64,000 bases of DNA from Gammaproteobacteria bacterium (lineage in GTDB: Bacteria > Pseudomonadota > Gammaproteobacteria > HyVt-429). Position numbers and translations under genes: made by a program. The stretch spans positions 13,046-77,045 of the forward strand of contig JAADGI010000018.1 of the NCBI GenBank assembly GCA_013152415.1, in the 5' to 3' direction. The first letter of the stretch is position 1. The number at the start of each line of letters is the position of its first letter. The notes beneath the pieces are model-generated. The model worked only from the letters and a program-made list of their open reading frames with translations. It made no database searches and was not told the origin of the DNA. Below, piece after piece: positions 1,367 through 44,047 of the stretch.

Positions 1367-3640
1367 ATGACTATCCCTGCCCAAGACACCTCCGAGGCCC
1401 TGCAAAAGGCCCTGCACAACACCCGCCACAGGCGATTGCGTGCACTGAAAGATCGCTTTGCGCAGTGGAGTATTGCCGCTGGGGGAGTAGGGGTCATCAT
1501 CGCCATTGTGCTGATCTTCTTCTATCTGGTGTGGGTGACCCTGCCCCTGTTTCAGCCCGCATCCCTGCATAAAACCGCTCAATACCCAGCCCCAGGGGAT
1601 GCCGATGCAGTCACACGGTATCTGGCCATGGAGGAACAGCACGAGATTGGTGTGCGCTTTACCGACCGTGGTCAGGTGGTGTTTTTTGCCGCCAACAACG
1701 GAAAAATTATCTCCCAGGTCAATAGCAAACTGCCCAAGAATATTGGCATCACCAGCTTTACCGCCGGTGCCCCTAACAAGGCCACCGTGGCCTACGGCCT
1801 GGATGATGGCCGTGCCCAGGTCTTGCGCCATGTTTATGATGTGACCTTTCCTGGTGACCACAGACTGATTACACCCCGGCTGGAAAACCCACTGGGAGAC
1901 GCCCCCCTGGTGGTGGACCCCAAGAAACACCCCCTGGTACAACTCGCCGTTCAGGTCGGTGAGGATACCGCCACCCTGGTGGCGGCCACCGATGACCACC
2001 GGCTGCTGCTGCTGGGATTGGAAAAATCAGAGTCTTTACTCGATGATGGGGAGTGGACCACGACCCGTACCGAACTCCAGGCCCCAGCTGCCCCCATTAC
2101 ACACATCATCCTCAATCTGGACCAACGGGAACTCTACGCCGCCGACCAGGAAGGGCGTATCAGTTTTTATGACATCCGCGACAAATCCGCACCTCGCCTG
2201 GTGCACACGGTTGCCGCAGTCCGTGACGGCGTACAAATCAGTGCCTTACAATTCCTGTCCGGGGGAATCTCTATCATGGTAGGGGGATCCGATGGCAGCC
2301 TGAGCCAATGGTTTCCGGTACGTGATTCGCACAACAACTACACCTTGTCCGCCATTCGCCGTTTTGACCCCCTCACCGGTCCGGTCACGAGCATTACCCC
2401 GGAGTTTAGCCGTAAGGGTTTTATGGCGGCTGGCCAACGGGGCCAATTCAATATCTACCACAGCACCGCGCACAGCACCGTGCTGCGTAAAACACTGTCA
2501 AAATACAGTGTAAACCAATTGGCGATTGCACCCAGGGCCAATGCCTTGCTGCTGGAAGACGCCAGCCAACAGATACAGTTTTACCTCGTCGACAACGAGC
2601 ACCCTGAAATTTCATGGTCCTCACTTTGGAGCAAGGTGTGGTACGAGGGTTATGACGCACCGCAATATCTGTGGCAATCGTCTTCTGCCTCTAATGATTA
2701 CGAACCCAAATTCAGTCTGACGCCCATCACCTTCGGTACCCTCAAGGCGGCCTTCTACGCCATGTTGTTCGCCATACCCCTGGCCATCCTGGGTGCCATC
2801 TACACCTCCTATTTTATGGCGCCGCGCATGCGCAGACTGGTCAAGCCGAGCATCGAGATCATGGAGGCCCTGCCCACCGTAATCCTCGGTTTTCTGGCCG
2901 GACTATGGTTGGCGCCCTTTCTGGAGAAACACCTGCCGGGGGTATTTTCCCTGCTCATTATTCTGCCCGTGGGGGTGCTGTTATTTGCCTACCTTTGGCA
3001 GTGCGCACCCAAATTACTACGTGATTGTGTCCCCGAGGGTTGGGAGGGGGCGCTCCTCATCCCTGTCATTATCCTGATCAGTTGGGCGGCCATTTCCATC
3101 AGCCAACCCATGGAACAATGGTTCTTCCAGGGTGATATTCGCAAGTGGCTATCCAATGATATGGGCATCCAGTTTGACCAACGGAATTCCCTGGTGGTGG
3201 GGCTGGCGATGGGTTTTGCGGTCATCCCCACGATCTTTTCCATTGCCGAAGACGCCATATTTGGGGTGCCCAAGCACCTCACCCAAGGCTCCCTTGCCCT
3301 GGGGGCCACCCCCTGGCAAACCCTCAGCCGGGTTGTCATCCTCACCGCCAGCCCAGGTATCTTTTCCGCCATCATGATTGGGCTGGGTCGTGCGGTGGGC
3401 GAAACCATGATTGTGCTGATGGCCACCGGTAACACCCCGGTCATGGACTTCAGCATCTTCCAGGGCATGCGCACCCTGTCTGCCAATGTCGCCGTGGAAA
3501 TGCCTGAGGCCGAAGTGGGCAGCACCCACTACCGGGTGCTGTTTCTGGCGGCAACGGTGTTGTTTGCCGCCACATTTCTGTTCAACACCGCCGCAGAAGT
3601 CGTCAGACAACGGCTGCGTAAAAAATACAGCAACCTGTAG
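1367..3640 (+). CDS. pstC: Phosphate ABC transporter permease PstC (long form with a large N-terminal periplasmic extension)
   Basis: 757 aa. The C-terminal half is a typical Pst permease with an EAA-like loop. The long N-terminal domain is as in Pseudomonas-type PstC. pstA, pstB and phoU follow it. Confidence 0.9.
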   Translation: MTIPAQDTSEALQKALHNTRHRRLRALKDRFAQWSIAAGGVGVIIAIVLIFFYLVWVTLPLFQPASLHKTAQYPAPGDADAVTRYLAMEEQHEIGVRFTDRGQVVFFAANNGKIISQVNSKLPKNIGITSFTAGAPNKATVAYGLDDGRAQVLRHVYDVTFPGDHRLITPRLENPLGDAPLVVDPKKHPLVQLAVQVGEDTATLVAATDDHRLLLLGLEKSESLLDDGEWTTTRTELQAPAAPITHIILNLDQRELYAADQEGRISFYDIRDKSAPRLVHTVAAVRDGVQISALQFLSGGISIMVGGSDGSLSQWFPVRDSHNNYTLSAIRRFDPLTGPVTSITPEFSRKGFMAAGQRGQFNIYHSTAHSTVLRKTLSKYSVNQLAIAPRANALLLEDASQQIQFYLVDNEHPEISWSSLWSKVWYEGYDAPQYLWQSSSASNDYEPKFSLTPITFGTLKAAFYAMLFAIPLAILGAIYTSYFMAPRMRRLVKPSIEIMEALPTVILGFLAGLWLAPFLEKHLPGVFSLLIILPVGVLLFAYLWQCAPKLLRDCVPEGWEGALLIPVIILISWAAISISQPMEQWFFQGDIRKWLSNDMGIQFDQRNSLVVGLAMGFAVIPTIFSIAEDAIFGVPKHLTQGSLALGATPWQTLSRVVILTASPGIFSAIMIGLGRAVGETMIVLMATGNTPVMDFSIFQGMRTLSANVAVEMPEAEVGSTHYRVLFLAATVLFAATFLFNTAAEVVRQRLRKKYSNL

Positions 3641-3648
3641 CCAGAAAA

Positions 3649-5343
3649 ATGAACAGCAACAAACAAGACCATCGGGATATGAATCATTCAGCCAAAAACT
3701 GGTTCAAGAGCGGTTCACCCTGGGTGTGGCTTACCGCAGCAGCGGTCAGTGCCAGCATCATCATGGTCGCTGGCCTGCTTGCCCTGATTGCTGTCCGTGG
3801 ACTGAGTCACTTTTGGCCCACTCCGGTAATGGTGGCGGATTATCATGAGTCCGACACGCGCACTGTGCACATCATCGGTGAAATACGGGATAGCGAGTCG
3901 GTGCCCCTGGCGCGTCTACATGCCAACGGTGAGACCATCAAAAGCGACAGTGAATCCATCACCCGCTACCTGCTGCGTGTCGGCAATCGGGATATACAGG
4001 GCCTGGATTTCCGTTGGGTACTGAAACCCAAACTCAGCCAGCAACACTACCCCGACGCTGTCATGGTCATTGAGCGTCGTGAGTGGGGAAATTTTTACGG
4101 TCATCTCCAGGCCATTAAGGAAGATGGAAAGGTCGTTAAAGAAGGCGACAGGGCCTGGGACGCATTACAACAACGTATCGCCCGCACACAAAAGATATTC
4201 AGTGAGATCAGGGAGATTGAGAAAGACGACATCGGTGCCATCAACTATCGGTTGGAACGCCTGCGCCTGGATGAGCGCCACATGGAAATCGCCAATAATA
4301 ACGATGCCGATGATCGGGCATCCATTAGCCGCGAGAGGGCCGTACTGCAGGCCCGTTACAAGGGCCTGCAACAAAAGCTGGTCCAATTGTATGCCGACAT
4401 CGGCCGAGATGTATTGGTCGCGAAAACAGGTGAGGGGCGAGTGGTGGATATCCCCCTGAGCAAGGTTGTGCGCGCCTATCGGCCCAACGCCATGAGTTTT
4501 TTAAAAAAATGCCTGTTCTACGCTGAAAAGCTGTGGGAGTTTGTCAGCGATGAACCACGCGAGGCCAACACCGAAGGGGGCATATTGCCCGCCATCTTTG
4601 GTACGGTGATGATGGTCATCCTCATGTCAATATTCGTCACCCCCTTTGGGGTTGTTGCCGCCGTGTATTTGCGTGAATATGCCAAACAAGGTCCACTGAC
4701 CCGCACAATCCGTATTGCGGTAAATAATCTCGCCGGTGTGCCCTCCATCGTCTACGGTGTGTTCGGCCTTGGATTTTTTGTCTACTTTCTGGGAGGCTCT
4801 CTGGACCAATTATTTTACCCGGAAGCCCTGCCGGCACCGACCTTTGGAACACCTGGCATCCTGTGGTCCTCGCTTACCCTGGCATTACTCACTCTGCCGG
4901 TGGTGATCGTCGCCACCGAGGAAGGCTTGAGCCGTATACCCAAATCGATCCGCGAGGGTAGCCTGGCGCTCGGCGCGACCAAGGCGGAGACATTGTGGCG
5001 AACAGTATTGCCTATGGCCAGCCCGGCCATGATGACCGGGCTGATCCTGGCCATCGCCCGTGCTGCGGGTGAAGTCGCACCACTGATGCTGGTCGGTGTG
5101 GTAAAACTTGCGCCTTCTCTGCCGTTAGACACCAACGCCCCCTTTCTACACCTTGAACGTAAATTTATGCATCTCGGGTTTCACATTTATGATGTGGGTT
5201 TCCAGAGTCCCAATGTCGAGGCTGCACGCCCGTTGGTCTATGCTACCTCCTTGTTGCTGGTCCTGGTCATCATTGCCCTCAACCTGACGGCCATTGCGGT
5301 GCGCAACCACCTGCGTGAAAAATACCGCGCACTTGAGTCATAA
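3649..5343 (+). CDS. pstA: Phosphate ABC transporter permease PstA (long form)
   Basis: 564 aa with an N-terminal TM, an insert domain and a C-terminal ABC permease core. It lies between pstC and pstB. Confidence 0.9.
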   Translation: MNSNKQDHRDMNHSAKNWFKSGSPWVWLTAAAVSASIIMVAGLLALIAVRGLSHFWPTPVMVADYHESDTRTVHIIGEIRDSESVPLARLHANGETIKSDSESITRYLLRVGNRDIQGLDFRWVLKPKLSQQHYPDAVMVIERREWGNFYGHLQAIKEDGKVVKEGDRAWDALQQRIARTQKIFSEIREIEKDDIGAINYRLERLRLDERHMEIANNNDADDRASISRERAVLQARYKGLQQKLVQLYADIGRDVLVAKTGEGRVVDIPLSKVVRAYRPNAMSFLKKCLFYAEKLWEFVSDEPREANTEGGILPAIFGTVMMVILMSIFVTPFGVVAAVYLREYAKQGPLTRTIRIAVNNLAGVPSIVYGVFGLGFFVYFLGGSLDQLFYPEALPAPTFGTPGILWSSLTLALLTLPVVIVATEEGLSRIPKSIREGSLALGATKAETLWRTVLPMASPAMMTGLILAIARAAGEVAPLMLVGVVKLAPSLPLDTNAPFLHLERKFMHLGFHIYDVGFQSPNVEAARPLVYATSLLLVLVIIALNLTAIAVRNHLREKYRALES

Positions 5344-9345: not shown

Positions 9346-10380
<1,035 letters not shown>

Positions 10381-10454
10381 TCAACCTGGAGAGCACATCA
10401 TGGCCTGGCCCCGGAGCAAAAATCAAAGAGGACGCCATCAACCCAGCCCAATGG

Positions 10455-11522
10455 CTACCTCCGCTTCTTTTTCTTAGCCTTCTTTTTCTTAACCTTCTTT
10501 TTCTTGGCGGCCTTCTTTTTAGTCGCCTTTTTCTTGGTCTTCTTTTTCTTGGCTACTTTTTTCTTAGCCTTCTTTTTGACCTTCTTTTTAGTCTTCTTTT
10601 TCTTAACAGCCTTTTTCCGGGTTGCCTTTTTCTTAACCTTCTTTTTCTTGGCGGCCTTCTTTTTAGTCGCCTTTTTCTTGGTCACTTTCTTCTTGGCAGC
10701 CTTCTTCTTGGCAGCCTTCTTCTTGGCCTTCTTTTTTGCGGCCTTTTTAGGTTTCTTTTTAGTTGTCTTGGTAGCCTTCTTCTTCTTTTTCTTAGCAGTC
10801 TTGGCCGTTGCAGTGGGTGATGTCACCGCTGCCACCACCGGCTGTGCCTCGACGCCCTTTACCTGTAGTGGCCGAATCTCGGCATCCACCATGTCACAAA
10901 TGTGGGAAAAAATCTCATCCACCTCGTCCATACCATGGACCCGGCGTAGCTTTCCCTGGGCCTTGTAATAGGCGACCAAGGGGGCGGTCTCGCTTTCATA
11001 GACCTCCAGCCGTTTTCGGATGGTGGATTCATTATCATCCGAACGTTGCATGAGTGATCCACCACATTTGTCACAGCGACCCTGAATCTTGGGCGTGGCA
11101 AAATGAATGTTGTACATCTGGCCACAGCTGCTGCAGGTGCGTCGACCGGTCAGCCGTTTGATCAGGATATCGTTGTCCACTGCTACCAATAGGGCAATTT
11201 GCAGGGGCCGACCCAACCAGGCGAGCTTGGCATCCAGTTCCTGGGCCTGGGGGATATTGCGGGGAAAGCCATCAAGGATAAAGCCACTCTTGGCATCAGG
11301 CTGGGTCAAACGCTCTTCGATCATACCCAAAACTACGTCGTCTGATACCAACTGGCCTGCATCCATAGCCGCCTTGGCCTGCTTGCCGAGAGCCGTTCCT
11401 GCCTTGACTGCAGCACGCAGCAGGTCCCCGGTGGACACCTGCGGTACCTTGTATCTCTCAACTAGTAATTTGGCCTGGGTTCCCTTCCCGGATCCTGGTG
11501 CACCCAACAGTATTATTCTCAT
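10455..11522 (-). CDS. adk: Adenylate kinase fused to a lysine/alanine-rich (KKKA-repeat) histone-H1-like C-terminal tail about 120 aa long
   Basis: N-terminal GAPGSGKGT P-loop and a Cys4 zinc lid (CSSC...CDKC). The core ends around residue 217. It is followed by a linker and then KKKAAKKK-type repeats running to the stop. Confidence 0.85.
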   Translation of the reverse strand: MRIILLGAPGSGKGTQAKLLVERYKVPQVSTGDLLRAAVKAGTALGKQAKAAMDAGQLVSDDVVLGMIEERLTQPDAKSGFILDGFPRNIPQAQELDAKLAWLGRPLQIALLVAVDNDILIKRLTGRRTCSSCGQMYNIHFATPKIQGRCDKCGGSLMQRSDDNESTIRKRLEVYESETAPLVAYYKAQGKLRRVHGMDEVDEIFSHICDMVDAEIRPLQVKGVEAQPVVAAVTSPTATAKTAKKKKKKATKTTKKKPKKAAKKKAKKKAAKKKAAKKKVTKKKATKKKAAKKKKVKKKATRKKAVKKKKTKKKVKKKAKKKVAKKKKTKKKATKKKAAKKKKVKKKKAKKKKRR

Positions 11523-11792
11523 GATTTTCTCGCTCTTGGATTTTTCTTGCCCCAGACCTTCACTTGGCCCAGGTCTATGTAAGGCCGCTAAACTACCGCC
11601 TTGACGGCCCTGACGTCAATGGTGAAAGCCAATTATGCGTGATCTCAGCACCCTGAAATTTCAAGGCTAACCCCTTAACCCCGTGACCCTGGACACGAAA
11701 AAATCCCGATTTCTCTGCTGATGGGGCAAAAAACCGGGCTGCGGCCTTGCCATGACACGTCGTTGTGGGACAATCCCCCTCCGGAGAATCCC

Positions 11793-12182
11793 ATGCCAGA
11801 TATCAACGACTTTAGCGACACCGAAATGTGGACCATCCAGACCACGTTGAAGGAACGCTATGGCAAGGACGTGGAGGTGCAGCTGGCGGATGTTGATCTA
11901 CGCCTAAGCCCCGCTGACCGCGAAACCACCTCTTGCCCAGCCCTGTACTGGTCTGAACGCGATGCCAACTTTGTGGTCGCCAAACTCGGCGATGAACGCT
12001 TTTATTGTCAGTTTTATTATCGCGGCCACGAGCAGTTTGGCGTTGGCCGTGATGAGTGGGACAACCTGGCGGAGTGTGTCACCACCTTATTGCAAGTTCA
12101 GGCTGATCACGAGGCCAAACGGGCCACGGAACCCGAAGACAGCACCGGGGACACCAAGAGAGCAACGCCTGATTCGCCCTGA
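11793..12182 (+). CDS. Hypothetical acidic protein
   Basis: The ORF has a GGAGAA RBS 6 nt before the ATG at 11793. I do not recognise the family. Confidence 0.4.
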   Translation: MPDINDFSDTEMWTIQTTLKERYGKDVEVQLADVDLRLSPADRETTSCPALYWSERDANFVVAKLGDERFYCQFYYRGHEQFGVGRDEWDNLAECVTTLLQVQADHEAKRATEPEDSTGDTKRATPDSP

Positions 12183-12255
12183 TCGGCCAAGCAATTCACC
12201 CGATTTCTTTTAACCCTATCCAATATAAATAGCAGCAGCGAGGTAGTAACATCCA

Positions 12256-13593
12256 ATGGCAGCCCGAAAGAAGAAGACTAAATCCAAGAAAAAAACCGTG
12301 AAACGCGCTAAGTCACGGGTCACCCCCAAGCCCAAGGCCCAAAATGCCTTTTACGCCCAATCCGGCGGTGTCACCGCAGTCATCAATGCGTCCGCTTGTG
12401 GCATCATCGAAACCGCGCGTAAACATAAAAAACATATTGCCAAGGTCTATGCGGGCCGTAATGGCATCATCGGCGCGCTCACCGAAGACCTGATTGATAC
12501 CAGCAAGGAATCTGCGGCCACCATCCGCGCCCTGCGCCATACTCCCAGTGGGGCCTTTGGCTCATGCCGCTACAAGCTCAAAAGCCTGGAACACAACCGC
12601 CGTGAGTACGAACGCCTCATCGAGGTCTTCAAGGCCCACAATATCGGTTATTTCTTCTACAATGGTGGCGGTGATTCTGCCGATACCTGTCTCAAGATTT
12701 CCCAGCTATCCGAGACCATGGGCTATCCCATCAAGGCCATCCATGTGCCCAAGACCGTGGACAATGATCTGCCCATTACCGACAACTGCCCCGGCTTCGG
12801 TTCGGTAGCCAAATACATTGCAATCTCCACCCGAGAGGCCAGCTTCGACGTGGCCTCCATGTGCAAGACCTCTACCAAGGTCTTTGTGCTGGAAGTGATG
12901 GGTCGCCATGCCGGCTGGATTGCCGCCGCCGGTGGCCTGGCCTCGAACAAGGATTGCGAAATTCCGGTAATTATCCTGTTCCCGGAAGTGGCCTTCGATA
13001 AGGAAAAATTCCTCAAGCGGGTGGATGAACTGGTCAAGAAACACGGCTACTGCTCAGTAGTGGTGTCTGAAGGTGTTAAAGGTGCCGACGGCAAGTTTCT
13101 TGCCGACCAGGGCCTGGTGGATGCCTTCGGTCATGCCCAACTGGGGGGGGCCGCACCGGTGGTCGCCAACATGATCAAGGATGGCCTGGGCCTGAAATAC
13201 CATTGGGGCGTGGCCGATTATCTACAGCGGGCGGCGCGCCATGTGGCCTCCAAGACCGATGTGGATATGGCCTACGCCATGGGTAAGGCCGCAGTGCAGT
13301 ATGCCGTCAAGGGTCACAACTCGGTAATGCCCACCGTAGTCCGCACCTCCAACAAACCCTTCAAGTGGAAAGTGGGCATGGCCCCCTTGAGTAAGGTGGC
13401 CAATGTGGAAAAAATGATGCCGAAAAACTTTATCAGTAAAGATGGTTTTGGTATCACCCAGGCCTGCCGCAATTATCTGACCCCCCTCATCAAGGGTGAA
13501 GACTACCCGCCTTATAAGGATGGCATGCCGAAATACGTACGACCCAAGAGTGTGGCCGTACCAAAAAAGCTCAAAAACAAGTTCGAGCTGTAA
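12256..13593 (+). CDS. pfp: Pyrophosphate-dependent 6-phosphofructokinase (PPi-PFK, Pfp), carrying a roughly 30-aa lysine-rich N-terminal extension
   Basis: PFK fold (AFYAQSGGVTAVINA ... GGDGS-equivalent region) and about 420 aa, typical of gammaproteobacterial Pfp. It is adjacent to an H+-PPase gene, as in methanotrophs and sulfur oxidisers. Confidence 0.8.
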   Translation: MAARKKKTKSKKKTVKRAKSRVTPKPKAQNAFYAQSGGVTAVINASACGIIETARKHKKHIAKVYAGRNGIIGALTEDLIDTSKESAATIRALRHTPSGAFGSCRYKLKSLEHNRREYERLIEVFKAHNIGYFFYNGGGDSADTCLKISQLSETMGYPIKAIHVPKTVDNDLPITDNCPGFGSVAKYIAISTREASFDVASMCKTSTKVFVLEVMGRHAGWIAAAGGLASNKDCEIPVIILFPEVAFDKEKFLKRVDELVKKHGYCSVVVSEGVKGADGKFLADQGLVDAFGHAQLGGAAPVVANMIKDGLGLKYHWGVADYLQRAARHVASKTDVDMAYAMGKAAVQYAVKGHNSVMPTVVRTSNKPFKWKVGMAPLSKVANVEKMMPKNFISKDGFGITQACRNYLTPLIKGEDYPPYKDGMPKYVRPKSVAVPKKLKNKFEL

Positions 13594-13597
13594 TCTG

Positions 13598-13639
13598 AAC
13601 GCCACCGCCGCTATTGATAGCAATATCGGTGGTGGCGTT
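13598..13639 (+). terminator. Large imperfect hairpin immediately after the pfp stop (13-bp outer stem plus palindromic loop), possible terminator or attenuator
   Basis: AACGCCACCGCCG-N16-CGGTGGTGGCGTT. There is no clear U-tract. Confidence 0.35.
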
Positions 13640-13827
13640 CCCACCTGCAACACAGCAAGTGTACGTTCCCATTTATAAATCAATGAGTTATCCGATTTTT
13701 TTACAAAACTATTGATGAAATTTCGTGCTAGAAAGATTCCAATTTAATGGCCGCATAAAAATATTTACCTTGCCTATTTATACCTTTGCTGCAAGCTTGC
13801 AGGCTGTTTTTCCGACCCCGGAAACTA

Positions 13828-14040
13828 ATGACAATTGATAAGGCACACGAGTTACTAGAGGTTCAGGCCGGCTTCGGTGGTTTCTATAATGGCAATTCGG
13901 CCAAACTGATCCTGTCTGAGGTAAGCCGTGAACATGGACAGGCCGCTGTGGACCAACTCATTCGTGAATTGGAACTGGAACACATCTTTGGTTTTAAACC
14001 GGGTACGGAATTTAAGGGTGGCTTGGCCATAGATGACTAA
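13828..14040 (+). CDS. Small hypothetical protein (70 aa)
   Basis: ORF upstream of hppA. The start is uncertain (TTG at 13786 or ATG at 13828). Confidence 0.3.
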   Translation: MTIDKAHELLEVQAGFGGFYNGNSAKLILSEVSREHGQAAVDQLIRELELEHIFGFKPGTEFKGGLAIDD

Positions 14041-14114
14041 GGCAACGTTCATCTAGCTTTAAGTGACTAAAACTATAATCTCGAACCTAACCCTATAATT
14101 TAGGAGGAGTACCC

Positions 14115-16154
14115 ATGGCGACCGGATTAATCATCGCATTAGTGTGCGCAGCTGCGGCATTGTTATACGGCGCGTTCTCAATCAAGTGGATTCTAGCCAA
14201 GCCAGCCGGCAACGAACGCATGCAAGAAATTGCAGCGGCCATTCAAGAAGGGGCCATGGCTTATCTTAACCGTCAATATTCCACCATCGCCGTAGTCGGC
14301 GTTGTCCTCATGGTCGCCATCGCCTATTTTGTCGACACCATGACCGCAGTGGGGTTTGTCATTGGCGCCGTACTTTCAGGCCTGACCGGCTATATTGGTA
14401 TGCATATCTCAGTGCGCTCCAACGTACGCACCGCTGAGGCCGCCAACAATGGCCTTAACGCCGCCATGCAAGTGGCCTTTCGCGGTGGTGCCATCACCGG
14501 CATGCTGGTGGTGGGTTTGGGGCTACTGGGTGTGGCCGGCTTCTACGGGGTCCTGGCAGCCATGGCGCCCAGCGGCGAGACCGTCAACCTGACACCCCTG
14601 ATAGGCTTGGCCTTTGGTGGTTCCCTGATCTCCATTTTTGCACGACTCGGTGGCGGTATCTTCACCAAGGGTGCCGATGTAGGTGCCGATATCGTAGGCA
14701 AGGTCGAGGCCGGTATCCCCGAAGATGACCCCCGTAACCCCGCAGTAATCGCTGATAACGTGGGGGATAATGTAGGGGATTGCGCCGGTATGGCCGCTGA
14801 TCTGTTTGAAACCTATGCCGTCACCATCGTCGCCACCATGCTGTTGGGAGGATTACTTATCAGCGGGGCAGGAACCACTTCGGCAATCTATCCCCTGGTC
14901 CTGGGGGGTGTCTCCATCATTGCCTGTATCGTTGGAACCTTCTTCGTCAAGGCACGAGAAGGTGGCAAGATCATGAATGCCTTGTATCGTGGGCTCATCG
15001 TCACCGGGATCCTTGCCGCAGCAGGCTTTTATCCGGCCACCATGTGGATGATGGGTGACGGCGTCAGCATAGACGGCAACACCATCTCGTCATTAAACTT
15101 GTATTACGCCACCTTGATCGGACTGGCACTCACTGCAGCCATGGTGGTCATCACTGAGTACTACACCGGTACGGAATACAAGCCGGTACGGCATATTGCT
15201 GAAGCCTCTACTACCGGCGACGGCACCAACGTCATCGCCGGCCTGGGTGTGTCCATGAAATCCACCGCCCTGCCCGTATTGGCCGTCTGTGCCAGTATTT
15301 GGGGGGCCCATGAATTGGCGGGACTGTACGGTATCGCCATCGCCGCGACCTCTATGTTGTCCCTAACCGGTATCATTGTCGCCCTGGACGCCTATGGCCC
15401 CATCACCGATAACGCCGGTGGTATTGCTGAAATGGCCGAACTGGACGAGAAAATTCGCAACATCACCGACCCCCTGGATGCGGTGGGCAACACCACCAAG
15501 GCGGTCACCAAGGGTTATGCCATCGGCTCCGCCGGGCTTGCTGCCCTGGTGTTATTTGCCGATTTCACCCACTCGTTGGACGCCCATGGTGGACAGCCTC
15601 TCAACTTCTCCCTGGACAACCACATGGTGCTCATCGGTCTGTTTATCGGTGGTCTGGTGCCCTACCTGTTCGGTGCCATGGCCATGGAGGCCGTAGGTCG
15701 GGCCGCTGGGGGCATCGTCAACGAGGTACGTCGGCAGTTCAAAGAAATCCCTGGCATCATGAAGGGCACGGCCAAACCGGACTACACCCGGGCCGTAGAT
15801 ATGCTGACCAAGGCCGCCATCAAAGAAATGATAATACCGTCCCTATTACCGATAGCGGTGCCCATTCTGGTGGGCCTGCTGCTGGGCAAAGAGGCCTTGG
15901 GTGGCCTGCTGATTGGCACTATCGTCACCGGCCTGTTTGTGGCCATCTCCATGACCACCGGTGGTGGTGCCTGGGATAATGCCAAAAAGTACATCGAGGA
16001 TGGTAACCATGGCGGTAAGGGTTCCGACGCCCACAAGGCCGCTGTGACCGGTGATACCGTAGGTGACCCCTACAAGGACACCGCCGGTCCCGCCATTAAC
16101 CCATTGATCAAAATTATCAATATTGTCGCTCTGCTGATGGTGCCGTTGTTATAA
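14115..16154 (+). CDS. hppA: K+-insensitive H+-translocating membrane pyrophosphatase (HppA)
   Basis: 679 aa with about 16 TM segments. The GNTTKA motif has Lys at the K+-dependence position. DxxxD PPi-binding motifs are present. Confidence 0.95.
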
Positions 16155-39946: not shown

Positions 39947-42900
39947 ATGGATCACGACCCCCTAAGGCGCGTTCTTTTTGTACTGTGGTTGTTGGTGCCA
40001 ACCACACTCTACGCCGCCCCCCTGAAACCCGACCGGGTCCCCGAACCCCTCAAACCCTGGGTCGAATGGGCCCTCCACGGTGAAGAACAAAAGACCTGTC
40101 CCTTCACCTACAACAACGAAAAACAACACTATTGCGCCTGGCCCAGCGAACTGCAACTGGAGCTGGATACACGTCAGGGCCAATTTGAACAACGCTGGCA
40201 AGTGCATAGTGAATCCTGGGCGGCACTGCCGGGCAGCCCCAAACACTGGCCCCAGTCGGTGAAGGTCGATGGCCAACCGGCGGTGGTACTCAACCGTGGC
40301 GGTCGACCCACCCTCAAACTGGCAGCCGGCACACATACCGTTGAGGGCAGGTTCACCTGGGACCGCCTCCCCGAATCCCTGTCCATCCCCAGGACCACGG
40401 GTCTGGTGGGTCTCAAGATCAAAAATCGCACAGTCCCTTTCCCAAATTTGGACACAGGGGGTCGCCTGTGGCTGCGGGAGCGGGATACCGACGCTAACAA
40501 AACCAAGCTAGGGGACCGCGTAGAGGTACAAGTCTATCGACGTATTGGGGACTCGATCCCCATGCAGATCACCACCCGCCTGGACCTCACCGTCTCCGGC
40601 ACCCAGCGGGAGATCGTGTTGGGTCCGGTCCTGCTCACTGAGGCCATTCCCCTGAAACTGAAAAGCACCCTGCCCGTGCGCCTGGAGGCAGACGGTCGCC
40701 TGCGTATACAAGTGCGTCCGGGGCGCTGGCAGATCGACTTGGTGGTGCGGTTCCCCGACCCACGCACCCAGTTGTCGGCCCCCGAGACGGGACCGCCCTG
40801 GCCTAAAGACGAGGTCTGGGTACTCGATGCCCGTAACGCGTTGCGCCTGGTGGAGGTCCAGGGGGTCACTCCTATAGACCCCCGCCAGACCAACCTGCCC
40901 AAGGACTGGAAAGACCTTCCCGCCTATCGCATGGGCAAAGGGGAGGTGTTCTCCCTCAAGATATTGCGTCGCGGTGACCCGTCCCCGGAACCCAATGCCC
41001 TCAAATTGCAGCGTACCCTGTGGCTGGATTTTGACGGCGGCGGTTACACCATCAAGGACAATATCAGTGGCCGCATGACCCAGGGTTGGCGCTTGGCCAT
41101 GTCAAACCCCACCCACCTGGGCCGTGTCACCGTCGACGGCAAACCCCAATTCATCACCCGGCTACAAGGTGAGGCCGAGGACGGCATAGAGGTTCGCCGG
41201 GGCGCCATCAGGCTGGAAGCCGACAGCCGCCTGGATAAAGCTGATCGTCGCCTACCGGTAGTGGGCTGGAACCAGGATTTTCAATCTGTCAGCGGCGAAC
41301 TCAACCTGCCCCCAGGCTGGCGCCTGCTCGCTGCCAACGGTGTGGACAAGGTCCCCGGCACTTGGCTGCAACGCTGGACCCTGCTCGACCTGTTCCTGGT
41401 GTTGATCGCCGCCGTCACCACCCTGCGCCTGTGGGACTGGCGAGGTGGGCTGCTGGCCCTGGTCACCCTGGGCCTGGTCTGGCACGAACCGGGGGCACCA
41501 CAAAATGTCTGGCTCAACATCCTCGCCGCCATCGCGCTGCTGCGGGTGCTGCCCGCCAATCGTTTGCGCACTGCGGTGACGTGGTATCGCAACGCCAGCC
41601 TCCTGGCCCTGGTGTTGATCGCCATCCCCTTCATGATCGATCAGGTACGCACCGGCCTGTACCCGCAACTGGAACGGCCCGGGCAACTTCGGCTCCTCGA
41701 CACACGCACGGATGACCGCCTTGAGATCACAGAACTCGCCGCACCCTTGGTGCAAAAACAGTTACTTGGTGCAATGAAGGCACAGACGGCCAAGCCAAAA
41801 CCCGCCTACAAGGATAAACACACTCGCAAGTTGCGATCAAAAATGCTCTATTCCCCGCAACAACAGGCCATTGACATCAATCAGCAAATCGACCCCAAGG
41901 CCCATATCCAAACCGGACCGGGCATCCCCAACTGGCGTTGGACCCGCATCCCCCTGAGTTGGAGTGGGCCGGTCAAAAAAGATCAAACCATGTCCCTGGT
42001 ATTGCTGTCCCCAGCATCCAATATGATCTTACAGTTTATTCAAATCCTGTTGCTGTTGGCCCTGGCCCTGTTCTTATCAGGGGTGATGCGAATCACAAAC
42101 AAAGGTATCCGCCTGGGCGCCCCCGTTCTGATGGCCGCATTGCTGGCAGGCAACCTGTTGGCACTGACACCCTCACCGGCACAGGCCGACATACCCACAC
42201 CAGAAATATTGAAGACTCTTAAGGAACGTTTGTTGGCACCCCCCGAGTGCCTGCCTCAATGCGCCCAGATTCCACGGCTGCAGTTGCAGCTGTCGCCCCA
42301 CACCTTGAGCGCCCGCATGGAGATACACACCCAGGAGGCCGTGGCGGTACCCCTGCCCGGTCACGCCAAACATTGGTTGCCCACTGAGGTCTTGGTCGAC
42401 GGCAAAATGGCCCAGGGCCTGTTCCGTAAAAATGGTGGGCTGTGGCTACAGCTTGCCCCCGGCAGACACCAAATCCTCATGGCCGGGCCTCTGCCCCAAC
42501 GCAACAATCTGGAATTGCCCCTGCCCCTGCGGCCCCATCATGTGCGCATCACCACCAAGGGGTGGTCCGTGGACGGCGTCCATGAAAACGGGCTTGTCGA
42601 TCAACAACTGCAACTTACCCGCAGTCGCGGCAGCGCCCCCCGCTTGCAGACACTTCAGTCCGACACCCTGCCACCCTTTGTCCGCGTGGTACGCACCCTG
42701 CACCTGGGACTCGACTGGCGGCTCGAGACCCGCGTGGTACGTGCCTCACCCAAGGGTGCGGCAATCTTGCTGGAAGTCCCCCTGCTCGGCAAAGAATCGG
42801 TGACCACCGATGGGGTGCGCATCAAGGATGGCAAAGTCCTGGTCAACATGTCCGCCGGTCAAACACGGATGGTCTGGCATTCAACCCTGGAGAAACAGGA

Positions 42901-44047
42901 CAGTCTCACCCTCACCGCCGCAGACACCTCCCGGTGGGTGGAGCAATGGCGTCTCGATGTGAGTCCCATCTGGCATCCCACCTTCTCCGGCATCCCGGTG
43001 GTACACCACCAAAACCGGGGCCAATGGTTACCCACCTGGCAACCCTGGCCCGGCGAATCCATCACCCTGAAAATACACCGCCCACAAGGCGTGGACGGAC
43101 GGACCCTTACTATTGATAGCAGTCAACTCAGTGTAGAACCCGGTCTACGGGCCACGGACCTGACTCTGAATTTCTCACTGCGCAGCAGTCAGGGCGGACA
43201 ACACACAATTACGATTCCCGAGGGGACACAATTACAATCGGTGACCATCAACAGCCGCCCCCAACCCATACGCCAGGACGGCAACAAGATCACCTTGCCC
43301 GTTGTCCCCGGCAGCCAGCGTGTCGTGCTTAAACTACGCAGCGACCAGGGCATCAAGACCGGGTTGACCACCCCGGCCATCCACCTGGGTGCGGCCAGCG
43401 TGAACCATCGACTGCACCTGACCCTGCCCCGGGATCGCTGGGTCTTGTTTGTAGGCGGACCAGACCTGGGACCGGCGGTGTTATTTTGGGGGGTACTCAT
43501 CGTGTTGGTCCTGTTGGCCTGGGGACTTGGCCGGATACCGTTGACGCCCCTGAAACATTGGCACTGGTTATTGTTGTTGATCGGCCTGAGCCAAGTCCCA
43601 GTATGGACGGGAGCCACCGTCGTGGCCTGGTTACTGGTACTGGGGATGCGGGCACGACTGGACGCAAACATCGGTCAACAACGTTTTGATCTCATGCAGA
43701 TCACCATTGTCCTACTGACCGTGCTCGCACTGTTGTTGTTATTCAACGCCGTGAAACAGGGCTTGCTGGGTACACCGGACATGCAGATTGCCGGTAACGG
43801 CTCCCACGCCTTCCGCCTCAACTGGTACCAGGACCGCAGCGGTGAAACCCTGCCCACCGCTTGGGTCGCATCGGTGCCGCTGTTTATCTACCGGTTTCTT
43901 ATGCTGGCCTGGGCACTATGGTTGGCCTTCGCCCTGCTACGCTGGTTGCGTTGGGGCTGGGAGTGCTTTGCCACCAATGGGCTGTGGCGTAAAGTGGCGG
44001 AAAAGAAAACGACAAAGAAAACAAAAAAGGGCGTCAAGAAAAAGTGA
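39947..44047 (+). CDS. Giant (1366 aa) internally duplicated envelope protein of unknown family, ending in a lysine-rich tail
   Basis: Signal peptide, a periplasmic domain of about 450 aa and a 4-TM cluster, then a second signal-like segment (ALTPSPAQA-D), a homologous second domain and a second TM cluster. It ends KKTTKKTKKGVKKK. Confidence 0.7.
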   Translation: MDHDPLRRVLFVLWLLVPTTLYAAPLKPDRVPEPLKPWVEWALHGEEQKTCPFTYNNEKQHYCAWPSELQLELDTRQGQFEQRWQVHSESWAALPGSPKHWPQSVKVDGQPAVVLNRGGRPTLKLAAGTHTVEGRFTWDRLPESLSIPRTTGLVGLKIKNRTVPFPNLDTGGRLWLRERDTDANKTKLGDRVEVQVYRRIGDSIPMQITTRLDLTVSGTQREIVLGPVLLTEAIPLKLKSTLPVRLEADGRLRIQVRPGRWQIDLVVRFPDPRTQLSAPETGPPWPKDEVWVLDARNALRLVEVQGVTPIDPRQTNLPKDWKDLPAYRMGKGEVFSLKILRRGDPSPEPNALKLQRTLWLDFDGGGYTIKDNISGRMTQGWRLAMSNPTHLGRVTVDGKPQFITRLQGEAEDGIEVRRGAIRLEADSRLDKADRRLPVVGWNQDFQSVSGELNLPPGWRLLAANGVDKVPGTWLQRWTLLDLFLVLIAAVTTLRLWDWRGGLLALVTLGLVWHEPGAPQNVWLNILAAIALLRVLPANRLRTAVTWYRNASLLALVLIAIPFMIDQVRTGLYPQLERPGQLRLLDTRTDDRLEITELAAPLVQKQLLGAMKAQTAKPKPAYKDKHTRKLRSKMLYSPQQQAIDINQQIDPKAHIQTGPGIPNWRWTRIPLSWSGPVKKDQTMSLVLLSPASNMILQFIQILLLLALALFLSGVMRITNKGIRLGAPVLMAALLAGNLLALTPSPAQADIPTPEILKTLKERLLAPPECLPQCAQIPRLQLQLSPHTLSARMEIHTQEAVAVPLPGHAKHWLPTEVLVDGKMAQGLFRKNGGLWLQLAPGRHQILMAGPLPQRNNLELPLPLRPHHVRITTKGWSVDGVHENGLVDQQLQLTRSRGSAPRLQTLQSDTLPPFVRVVRTLHLGLDWRLETRVVRASPKGAAILLEVPLLGKESVTTDGVRIKDGKVLVNMSAGQTRMVWHSTLEKQDSLTLTAADTSRWVEQWRLDVSPIWHPTFSGIPVVHHQNRGQWLPTWQPWPGESITLKIHRPQGVDGRTLTIDSSQLSVEPGLRATDLTLNFSLRSSQGGQHTITIPEGTQLQSVTINSRPQPIRQDGNKITLPVVPGSQRVVLKLRSDQGIKTGLTTPAIHLGAASVNHRLHLTLPRDRWVLFVGGPDLGPAVLFWGVLIVLVLLAWGLGRIPLTPLKHWHWLLLLIGLSQVPVWTGATVVAWLLVLGMRARLDANIGQQRFDLMQITIVLLTVLALLLLFNAVKQGLLGTPDMQIAGNGSHAFRLNWYQDRSGETLPTAWVASVPLFIYRFLMLAWALWLAFALLRWLRWGWECFATNGLWRKVAEKKTTKKTKKGVKKK

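What the first reader, a model, noticed from the sequence alone, without database searches (positions are those of the whole stretch)
10455..10870. Adenylate kinase fused to a roughly 120-aa histone-H1-like poly-Lys/Ala tail
The adk ORF keeps a normal core with a Cys4 zinc lid, ending around ...ICDMVDAEI. It then continues in frame for about 140 codons, a short linker followed by about 120 aa of near-pure KKKA/KKKV repeats. The result is a 355-aa protein where 215 aa is typical. This composition is typical of DNA, RNA or polyphosphate-binding tails such as H1-like, AlgP-like or Hc1-like proteins. It is not a normal part of Adk. The repeat also creates mirror-image poly-F/L ORFs on the opposite strand. 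The fusion could tether nucleotide homeostasis to the nucleoid or to polyP granules. It could also be an assembly or frameshift artefact joining adk to a separate H1-like gene.
Basis: seen in the sequence. Interest (0 to 1): 0.7.

Follow-up and report, generated by a model that had tools for sequence, protein, structure and literature searches.

The report
Adenylate kinase with conserved polylysine tail
A housekeeping enzyme that balances ATP, ADP and AMP carries a real, evolutionarily conserved, disordered tail of about 140 residues with roughly +79 net charge; the tail most likely sticks the enzyme to DNA, RNA or polyphosphate, and I found no published description of it.

Summary
ORF 10455..11522 (-) encodes a 355-aa protein. 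It has a complete zinc-lid adenylate kinase core (residues 1-216), a 28-aa linker, and 111 aa that are 66% Lys with no Asp or Glu (net +76).

It is not an assembly or frameshift artefact. The 120 best database hits are all 289-503 aa, and they include the Adk of cultured Acidiferrobacter thiooxydans on a 3.3-Mb contig. A search with the core alone found dozens of 50%-identity clusters with Lys-rich C-tails of 56 to about 330 aa.

On a neighbour-joining tree, tailed Adks form one large gammaproteobacterial clade (Acidiferrobacteraceae, some Arenicellales, Thiohalomonadales/Thioalkalispiraceae, Thioalkalivibrio and Chromatiales MAGs). There is one nested loss and at least one separate gain.

The tail sequence turns over quickly, as a 58-nt perfect internal repeat and in-frame indels show. 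Its charge, reading frame and avoidance of long A-runs are kept. AlphaFold2 predicts the tail as disordered.

Best explanation: a histone-H1-CTD-like polycationic tail that tethers an active Adk to polyanions (nucleoid, RNA or polyphosphate). Binding is inferred and was not tested.

It belongs to the Adk family and not to the H1, Hc1/Hc2 or AlgP/PhaF families. I found no paper describing it. I rate it a new variant of a known kind, of moderate interest.

The parts
10455..11522 (-). Complete adk gene with tail: 355 codons plus the stop codon at 10455-10457
   Evidence: ORF list. An identical protein, P0001, is in public databases as 'adenylate kinase [Gammaproteobacteria bacterium]'.
10875..11522 (-). 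Adenylate kinase catalytic core, residues 1-216
   Evidence: Pfam ADK E=4e-54. PDB Adk chains align to residues 1-212. AF2 pLDDT is 94-97. P-loop G7-T15 and R36, R88, R123, R127, R160, R171, D162 and D163 are invariant.
11037..11144 (-). Zinc-type lid, residues 127-162, with Cys130, Cys133, Cys150 and Cys153
   Evidence: Pfam ADK_lid E=4e-15. All four Cys are invariant in 32 homologues.
10791..10874 (-). Linker, residues 217-244 (RPLQVKGVEAQPVVAAVTSPTATAKTAK). It starts with the junction motif (I)RPL found in most tailed Adks.
   Evidence: 110 of 169 tails start with RPL. P218 is >=90% conserved. The linker is nearly identical in L001/P0002 and P0003. AF2 pLDDT falls to ~48 here.
10458..10790 (-). 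Polylysine repeat region, residues 245-355: KKK(K) runs separated by one to three A/T/V/P/R residues, ending KKKKRR
   Evidence: Composition and charge. TRF periods of 15, 30 and 45 nt. AF2 pLDDT 42-50 with no secondary structure.
10482..10539 (.). Copy 1 of a 58-nt perfect direct repeat inside the tail
   Evidence: Exact-repeat search. Spacing is 144 nt = 48 codons, which indicates a recent in-frame internal duplication.
10626..10683 (.). Copy 2 of the 58-nt perfect direct repeat
10048..10968 (+). Antisense shadow ORF (poly-F/L), not a gene. A second shadow ORF lies inside it at 10374..10820.
   Evidence: ORF list. It is the reverse complement of the AAG/AAA-rich coding strand and overlaps hemB and adk, both of which have strong family matches.
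9346..10380 (-). hemB (porphobilinogen synthase), immediately downstream on the same strand. This is conserved synteny.
   Evidence: Pfam ALAD E=6e-141. hemB follows adk in many loci.
12256..13593 (+). Phosphofructokinase of the kind paired with H+-PPase (inferred PPi-dependent), divergent from adk. It has its own ~29-aa Lys-rich N-terminal extension at 12256-12342.
   Evidence: Pfam PFK. The extension is seen only here and in L002. The adk|pfk-hppA arrangement is conserved.
14115..16154 (+). Membrane ion-translocating pyrophosphatase (hppA), downstream of pfk
   Evidence: NCBIfam NF001951, 1164 bits.

Best explanation
This is a genuine, translated and selectively maintained C-terminal extension of the organism's adenylate kinase. 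The core has all the features of an active zinc-lid Adk. The tail is an intrinsically disordered polycation (about +79 in the window, median +46 across relatives). Its sequence drifts freely through slippage and duplication, while its charge is conserved. Like the histone H1 C-terminal domain and the bacterial KPAA/PAKKA tails of AlgP, PhaF, Hlp and Ku, it most likely binds polyanions non-specifically. That would keep Adk on the nucleoid or on ribosome-rich RNA during growth. By analogy with AlgP, it could move Adk to polyphosphate granules when these form, which would place AMP/ADP/ATP equilibration where nucleotides are consumed or regenerated. Shown here: the fusion is real, its anatomy, its conservation, the selection on frame and charge, and the predicted disorder. 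Inferred: polyanion binding, the identity of the partner, and any physiological benefit.
For: - Real and conserved. The best 120 homologues are all 289-503 aa, including A. thiooxydans on a 3.3-Mb contig. Their sequences show the same layout of core, linker and K/A/T/V/P-rich tail.
- Extending 75 genomic hits to their stop codons gives tails of 74-275 aa in Acidiferrobacteraceae, Arenicellales, Thioalkalispiraceae/Thiohalomonadales, Thioalkalivibrio, Chromatiaceae/Chromatiales and Steroidobacteraceae MAGs.
- A core-only phmmer search of 1.84 billion representatives finds dozens of tailed 50%-identity clusters.
- An NJ tree places almost all tailed Adks in one clade with one nested loss.
- Selection, window versus its closest relative L001: the core has 125 identical, 77 synonymous and 14 non-synonymous codons. 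The tail has 47 identical, 49 synonymous and 41 non-synonymous codons, and all indels are in frame.
- Four-fold-site divergence is 0.43. The 76 Lys codons are each one mutation from a stop, so 5-16 nonsense hits are expected and none is seen.
- Tails have a median of 2% D+E, and 0% in the last 60 aa.
- The longest A-run is 6 nt, against 11.8 expected from the genome's Lys codon usage; 0 of 5000 simulations were that short.
- Disorder: AF2 pLDDT is 42-50 with no secondary structure in the tail and 94-97 in the core.
- Precedents: the AlgP KPAA tail localises to polyP granules and is needed for their even spacing (PMC9239181). The PhaF KPAA region binds RNA through its lysines (PMC12818456). PAKKA tails of Ku and Hlp contact DNA (PMC3553676). 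Even untailed E. coli Adk binds ribosomes and RNA weakly (PMC6471074).
Against: - No binding, localisation or expression data exist for any tailed Adk.
- Rapid sequence turnover and a perfect 58-nt repeat also fit a tolerated slippage-prone appendage.
- One nested lineage (L013) lost the tail cleanly, and many related gammaproteobacteria with the same adk|pfk-hppA synteny have untailed Adk. The tail is therefore dispensable in similar genomic settings.
- The window tail is far more Lys-dense (66% K, no KPAA motif) than the experimentally studied tails, so the analogy rests on charge only.
- I could not determine whether these genomes also carry a second, untailed adk. One MAG (S010_5) has both kinds, on different contigs.
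Confidence: 0.6

Rival explanations
1. PolyP-specific version. The tail docks Adk on polyphosphate granules, so that ADP made from AMP plus polyP by PPK2/PAP-type enzymes is converted on the spot to ATP plus AMP. This would make a polyP-driven ATP-regenerating micro-compartment.
For: AlgP, which has a compositionally similar tail, is a validated polyP-granule protein. Coupling of Adk with polyP:AMP phosphotransferase or PPK to regenerate ATP is established biochemistry; it is cited in PMC3163519 and in the reference list of PMC8776046. In the window adk sits among phosphate and pyrophosphate genes: pstCAB-phoU, a Pit-like transporter, pfk and H+-PPase. The same holds in A. thiooxydans.
Against: No ppk, ppk2 or ppx gene was found in the 64-kb window. 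The phosphate/PPi synteny is shared with untailed Adk lineages, so it does not track the tail. A polycation of this kind cannot distinguish polyP from nucleic acids by sequence alone.
Confidence: 0.2
2. The tail is the functional part and Adk is the carrier. An abundant enzyme with +46 to +79 charge per molecule would act as a histone-H1-like nucleoid-compacting protein, possibly responsive to adenylate status through the open/closed cycle of Adk.
For: Charge and length are comparable to or greater than H1 CTDs and AlgP. Similar tails occur on other unrelated enzymes, for example the peroxiredoxin P0273. This suggests a portable polycation module.
Against: There is no evidence on abundance or DNA compaction. 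Conservation of the junction motif and of every catalytic residue shows the enzyme itself is under selection. Coupling to energy charge is pure speculation.
Confidence: 0.1
3. Neutral run-on. A low-complexity extension arose by stop-codon loss and replication slippage, and it is merely tolerated.
For: Length is very variable (56 to about 330 aa) and turnover is fast. There is a 58-nt perfect repeat. One lineage lost the tail cleanly. Tandem periodicities are visible.
Against: The tail persists while core identity falls to ~50%. No nonsense mutation has occurred although every Lys codon is one step from a stop. Acidic residues are essentially absent. Many AAA<->AAG synonymous changes preserve Lys. 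Long A-runs are avoided.
Confidence: 0.07
4. Assembly or frameshift artefact that joins adk to a separate H1-like gene.
For: In two Nanopore-derived MAGs (L030, L032) adk ends at an A9 run, and a basic 256-aa ORF follows in another frame. Homopolymer errors can therefore affect this gene, though there they split it rather than fuse it.
Against: The junction and linker are conserved at the amino-acid level, with many synonymous DNA differences, in independent assemblies. The fusion is present in a closed isolate chromosome and on 20 further contigs carrying the identical protein. The longest A-run in the window tail is only 6 nt.
Confidence: 0.01

Closest known systems
Bacterial zinc-lid adenylate kinase (e.g. 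Geobacillus stearothermophilus Adk 1ZIN, Bacillus subtilis 1P3J)
   Same: Residues 1-212 align end to end with E about 1e-65 to 1e-74. The fold is the same, with P-loop, catalytic Arg/Asp and a Cys4 lid.
   Different: All solved Adks are 187-245 aa. None has the 139-aa polycationic extension.
AlgP and PhaF of Pseudomonas (KPAA-repeat, histone-H1-like C-terminal domains)
   Same: A long, disordered, Lys/Ala-rich C-terminal repeat appended to a folded N-terminal domain. Repeat number varies between species. Experimentally these tails bind DNA, RNA or polyP granules.
   Different: The N-terminal domain is an enzyme, not a phasin-like helical domain. There is no KPAA motif. Lys density is about 2.5 times higher (66% against ~25%). 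No homology is detectable.
PAKKA-type lysine-rich tails of actinobacterial Hlp/HupB/HupS, M. smegmatis Ku and Deinococcus HU
   Same: Lysine-rich low-complexity terminal extensions that evolved repeatedly and change fast.
   Different: Those are attached to proteins that already bind DNA and modulate that binding. Here the carrier is a small-molecule metabolic enzyme with no known nucleic-acid role.
[quoted passage not shown]
   Same: K/A/P/T-rich composition, net positive charge and predicted disorder. Pfam HC2 (PF07382) is recorded for two relatives' tails, P0034 and P0120.
   Different: There is no winged-helix globular domain. The window protein has no Hc1 or Hc2 profile hit at E<=0.01.
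Targeting extensions on eukaryotic adenylate kinases (e.g. flagellar N-terminal extensions of trypanosome ADKs; from my own knowledge, not checked here)
   Same: The concept is the same: a non-catalytic terminal extension localises an Adk to a particular cell structure.
   Different: The position (N-terminal), the chemistry (not polycationic low complexity), the kingdom and the target are all different.

Membership tests
Adenylate kinase (Pfam PF00406, long-lid bacterial type) | Profile match to the ADK domain above the curated cut-off | tested here: met
   183.3 bits against a cut-off of 26.8, residues 5-190.
Adenylate kinase (Pfam PF00406, long-lid bacterial type) | P-loop GxPGxGKGT and the catalytic Arg/Asp set | tested here: met
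   G7, P9-Q16, R36, R88, R123, R127, R160, D162, D163 and R171 are invariant in a 32-sequence alignment that includes the window protein.
Adenylate kinase (Pfam PF00406, long-lid bacterial type) | Lid domain with a Cys4 zinc site | tested here: met
   ADK_lid 55.8 bits. C130, C133, C150 and C153 are invariant.
Adenylate kinase (Pfam PF00406, long-lid bacterial type) | Catalytic activity ATP + AMP <-> 2 ADP | not testable with these tools
   Inferred from intact catalytic residues and a confident AF2 core.
Linker histone H1/H5 | Winged-helix globular domain (Pfam Linker_histone) | tested here: not met
   The Pfam scan at E<=0.01 found only ADK and P-loop kinase families. AF2 shows no folded element after residue ~221.
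Linker histone H1/H5 | Lys/Ala/Pro-rich disordered C-terminal domain | tested here: met
   Composition and predicted disorder. This is a resemblance in composition only.
Chlamydial Hc1/Hc2 histone-like proteins | Match to the Hc1 or HC2 Pfam profiles | tested here: not met
   No hit for the window protein. Precomputed PF07382 appears for only two distant relatives.
AlgP/PhaF family | N-terminal phasin-like helical domain | tested here: not met
   The N-terminal domain is Adk.
AlgP/PhaF family | Tandem KPAA (or KPVA/KTAAA) repeats | tested here: not met
   The tail sequence contains no KPAA. Its units are KKK(K) followed by one to three A/T/V/P/R residues.
Polyanion (DNA/RNA/polyP)-binding polycationic tails, a functional class | Demonstrated binding to DNA, RNA or polyP | not testable with these tools
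   Supported only by charge (+79 for the whole tail) and by analogy.

The most novel reading that the evidence does not exclude
Tailed Adk is a previously unrecognised class of spatially organised energy-metabolism enzyme. The polylysine tail would partition the cell's adenylate-equilibrating enzyme into nucleoid or polyphosphate condensates. There it would either form a polyP-to-ATP regeneration compartment with PPK2/PAP, or act as an energy-charge-sensitive H1-like chromatin protein. This would hold across a whole radiation of sulfur-oxidising Gammaproteobacteria.
Probability: 0.2. Interest if true: 0.75.

Novelty: new variant of a known kind. Interest (0 to 1): 0.55.

Why it matters
Adenylate kinase is one of the most intensively studied enzymes and is usually treated as a freely diffusing ~215-aa monomer. 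Here a large, deeply diverged bacterial clade keeps a tail of up to about +79 charge on it. That implies this central step of energy homeostasis is spatially confined in these cells, probably on the nucleoid, RNA or polyP.

Lysine-rich tails have so far been studied mainly on proteins already associated with DNA or storage granules. This extends them to a core metabolic enzyme. Similar tails occur on a peroxiredoxin (P0273), and shorter basic extensions occur on the neighbouring PFK, which hints at a portable localisation module.

The idea is directly testable. A. thiooxydans is cultured, and the tail can be fused to reporters in model bacteria with or without polyP.

There is also a practical annotation point: A-rich tails are frameshift-prone in long-read assemblies, as L030 and L032 show.

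Tried and rejected
- **Artefact hypothesis.** Rejected on conservation.
- **Tail-only homology search.** It returned only 4 weak hits. As expected for low complexity, it gives no family assignment, though it showed similar tails on a peroxiredoxin and on unknown proteins.
- **Co-variation of the PFK Lys-rich N-extension with the Adk tail.** It does not co-vary; it occurs only in the window and L002.
- **A separate H1-like gene downstream of untailed adk as a fusion precursor.** I found only L030/L032, where an A9 frameshift suggests a split of an originally fused gene or a sequencing error, and an unrelated ComEA-like protein in Sulfurimonas L058.
- **Link between the phosphate/PPi neighbourhood and the tail.** The synteny is shared by untailed lineages, so it cannot support the polyP reading specifically.
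- **Promoter and terminator scan.** Counts were no higher than in shuffled sequence.
- **The repeat finder.** It gave only register-shifted low-identity families. The exact 58-nt repeat was found with a script.
- **Cluster look-up for taxonomy of distant tailed clusters.** It yielded almost no names.
- **Literature.** Eight of nine successful full-text searches looked for a tailed Adk or related precedents, and none found a description of it. The ninth concerned the PFK/H+-PPase pairing. The Ishige & Noguchi PNAS 2000 paper was not available.
- **The 1366-aa ORF first suspected to be RpoC with a Lys tail.** It is an uncharacterised multi-pass membrane protein whose short basic C-terminus is not comparable.

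Full report
**1. Observation**

The minus-strand ORF 10455..11522 encodes 355 aa.
- Pfam places the ADK domain at residues 5-190 (E=4e-54) and the ADK lid at 127-162. Nothing matches the C-terminal 140 residues.
- Sixty solved adenylate kinases, all 187-245 aa, align to query residues 1-212 at most.
- After ...ICDMVDAEI the frame continues with a 28-aa linker (RPLQVKGVEAQPVVAAVTSPTATAKTAK).
- Then come 111 aa of KKK(K) runs separated by one to three A/T/V/P/R residues, ending KKKKRR: 66% K, no D or E, net +76.
- The whole protein is 39.2 kDa with pI 10.6, against 23.6 kDa and pI 8.2 for the core.
- The poly-F/L ORFs on the plus strand (10048..10968 and 10374..10820) are the antisense image of the AAG/AAA codons.

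**2. Not an artefact**

- The identical protein is already deposited as 'adenylate kinase [Gammaproteobacteria bacterium]'. All of the best 120 homologues are 289-503 aa. They include the Adk of cultured Acidiferrobacter thiooxydans (354 aa, on a 3.3-Mb contig), which is encoded identically on at least 20 contigs.
- Their sequences share the same anatomy: core, a junction that is usually IRPL, a short A/P/T/V-rich linker, then a K/A/T/V/P-rich tail that often ends in RR, KR or KK.
- The closest relative is L001, an Acidiferrobacteraceae vent MAG with 94% core identity. It differs from the window at 77 synonymous and 14 non-synonymous codons in the core, so it is an independent sequence. It keeps the linker almost unchanged, and all tail indels are in frame.

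**3. Distribution**

I extended 75 genomic Adk hits from GTDB species representatives to their stop codons.
- Tails of 74-275 aa occur in Acidiferrobacteraceae, several unclassified Gammaproteobacteria, three Arenicellales, Thioalkalispiraceae/Thiohalomonadales, and Thioalkalivibrio, Chromatiaceae and Chromatiales MAGs. Steroidobacteraceae also have tails, though these are more Arg-rich.
- Nearly all hits below ~58% identity are 183-222 aa, as are a few at 62-67%.
- On an NJ tree of the cores (no support values), the tailed proteins form one large clade with a single nested, clean loss (L013). The Steroidobacteraceae pair is separate.
- A phmmer search with the core alone against 1.84 billion 50%-identity representatives is not biased by the tail. 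It still found dozens of single-domain clusters of 318-548 aa with Lys-rich C-tails. Some have an acidic or coiled-coil spacer before the basic part, for example P0144, P0156 and P0173.
- Of 205 single-domain relatives in hand, 169 have tails of at least 50 aa. The set is enriched by the first, full-length query. Medians are 129 aa, 38% K+R, 2% D+E and net +46. The last 60 aa are 50% K+R with 0% D+E.

**4. Evidence for selection and translation**

- **Many Lys positions stay Lys through AAA<->AAG changes.** In the tail, 49 codons differ synonymously and 41 differ non-synonymously.
- **No nonsense mutations.** Every Lys codon is one transversion from TAA or TAG. Four-fold-site divergence between the window and L001 is 0.43 (JC 0.64). 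A neutral tail of 76 Lys codons would be expected to collect about 5-16 nonsense hits between just these two genomes, and none occurred. The frame also stays open across much deeper splits.
- **Acidic residues are excluded**.
- **Long A-runs are avoided.** The longest is 6 nt. The expectation is 11.8 nt with the window's overall Lys codon usage (0 of 5000 simulations were that short) and 8.9 nt when the gene's own codons are shuffled (P=0.056). This fits avoidance of slippery poly-A.
- **The sequence itself is fluid.** TRF finds periods of 15, 30 and 45 nt. A perfect 58-nt repeat spaced 48 codons apart marks a recent in-frame duplication.

What is conserved is charge and disorder, not sequence.

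**5. Structure**

AlphaFold2 with a 32-sequence alignment gives pLDDT 94-97 for residues 1-216. From about residue 221 onward pLDDT is 42-50 with no secondary structure. The P-loop, the catalytic Arg/Asp residues and the four lid cysteines are invariant. I therefore infer that the enzyme is active.

**6. Context**

The window is ordinary chromosome.
- Upstream genes are pstC, pstA, pstB, phoU, a Pit-like transporter with its TIGR00153 partner, and hemB.
- Then comes adk. Divergently transcribed from it are a conserved small acidic ORF, a PFK, and a membrane ion-translocating pyrophosphatase.
- The adk | orf-pfk-hppA arrangement with hemB downstream is widely conserved. It is present in A. thiooxydans and also in lineages with untailed Adk. 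It therefore does not explain the tail.
- No ppk, ppk2 or ppx gene lies in the window.
- The window's PFK has a 29-aa Lys-rich N-terminal extension, shared only with L002.

**7. Mechanism**

The tail resembles the H1 C-terminal domain in composition. It also resembles bacterial Lys-rich low-complexity tails that have been studied experimentally.
- AlgP's KPAA domain puts it on the nucleoid and on polyP granules, and it is needed for even granule spacing (PMC9239181).
- PhaF's KPAA region binds RNA through its lysines (PMC12818456).
- PAKKA tails of Ku and Hlp contact DNA, and such tails 'have evolved repeatedly' (PMC3553676).
- Even untailed E. coli Adk interacts weakly with ribosomes and RNA (PMC6471074).

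The best-supported explanation is that the tail tethers Adk electrostatically to polyanions. The likely partner is the nucleoid or RNA during growth, and possibly polyP granules when these are present.

A polyP-specific reading is attractive because Adk plus PAP/PPK regenerates ATP from polyP and AMP (cited in PMC3163519 and PMC8776046). Nothing in the sequence data favours polyP over nucleic acids.

A neutral run-on tail is unlikely given the evidence in section 4. The artefact hypothesis is excluded.

**8. Comparison and novelty**

The protein is a bona fide Adk family member. It is not a member of the H1, Hc1/Hc2 or AlgP/PhaF families: it has no globular H1 domain, no profile hit, no phasin domain and no KPAA motif.

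Full-text searches found no description of an Adk with such a tail. Databases call these proteins simply 'adenylate kinase'.

I classify it as a new variant of a known kind: a known type of polycationic tail on an unexpected carrier, a core metabolic enzyme, conserved over a large clade. Interest is moderate at 0.55. The finding is real, widespread, undescribed and easy to test, but the function is inferred only by analogy, and lysine-rich tails are a familiar phenomenon in themselves.

Noticed in passing
window 12256-12342 (+): The PFK next to adk begins with a ~29-aa Lys/Arg-rich extension (MAARKKKTKSKKKTVKRAKSRVTPKPKAQ) ahead of the conserved NAFYAQSGG start. Among 31 related loci only L002 has a comparable extension (MATRKTKTKTKAKTTARRRTAAKTPV).
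   Followed up: partly
window 11721-12182 (+); also L001, L002, L004-6, L015-16, L036, L057, L060, L076-78: A small, strongly acidic ORF lies between adk and pfk and is conserved. It is 118 aa in A. thiooxydans, and the likely start in the window is Met25 at ~11793. It has no Pfam or NCBIfam match, and it occurs in both tailed and untailed Adk lineages.
   Followed up: partly
window 9346-16154; loci L002-L071, L076-78: The arrangement hppA <- pfk <- small ORF | adk -> hemB is conserved across many gammaproteobacterial orders. This is a stable association of adk with the genes inferred to handle pyrophosphate-dependent glycolysis.
   Followed up: partly
L030 4700-4810 and L032 2397-2460: In two Nanopore-derived MAGs adk ends ...ISKKKD* at an A9 run. 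One extra A would fuse it in frame to a 256-aa K/R/G-rich ORF (with GKNKGKNK repeats) that follows. This is either a homopolymer sequencing error, a true split, or a transcriptional-slippage site that gives two isoforms.
   Followed up: partly
P0273, P0274, P0271, P0272: Nearly identical KKKATKKKA-type tails are attached to a Bcp/AhpC-type peroxiredoxin (P0273) and to three uncharacterised proteins. P0274 also ends KKKKGKRR. The tail looks like a portable module.
   Followed up: no
C-termini of tailed Adks: Most tails end in a basic dipeptide. Of 169 tails, 41 end in RR, 26 in KR and 45 in KK. The recurrent switch from Lys to Arg at the very end (KKKKRR in the window) is unexplained.
   Followed up: no
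Linkers of P0145, P0150, P0152, P0153, P0165, P0180, P0182, P0200, P0212, and L011/L014/L023: A sub-clade of tailed Adks shares a short conserved linker motif, roughly (T/V)-I-(I/A/S)-G-G-x-(V/I)-x-(K/R), between the IRPL junction and the basic repeats. The window's sub-clade instead conserves V-x-x-V-(E/D)-A-x-P-V-(V/I)-A-x-V-T-S-P. These may be short binding motifs.
   Followed up: no
window 39947-44047 (+): A 1366-aa predicted multi-pass membrane protein has no Pfam, NCBIfam or PADLOC match. It ends in a short basic stretch (KKTTKKTKKGVKKK).
   Followed up: partly
window 1367-3640 and 3649-5343 (+): pstC (757 aa) and pstA (564 aa) are much longer than the ~300-aa profile lengths. The transporter domains occupy only the C-terminal parts.
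   Followed up: no
L034 and L046 (MAG S010_5, WFNB01): One MAG carries both a tailed Adk (59% identity to the window core) and an untailed 212-aa Adk of a different clade (54%) on separate contigs. This is either two paralogues or bin contamination.
   Followed up: no
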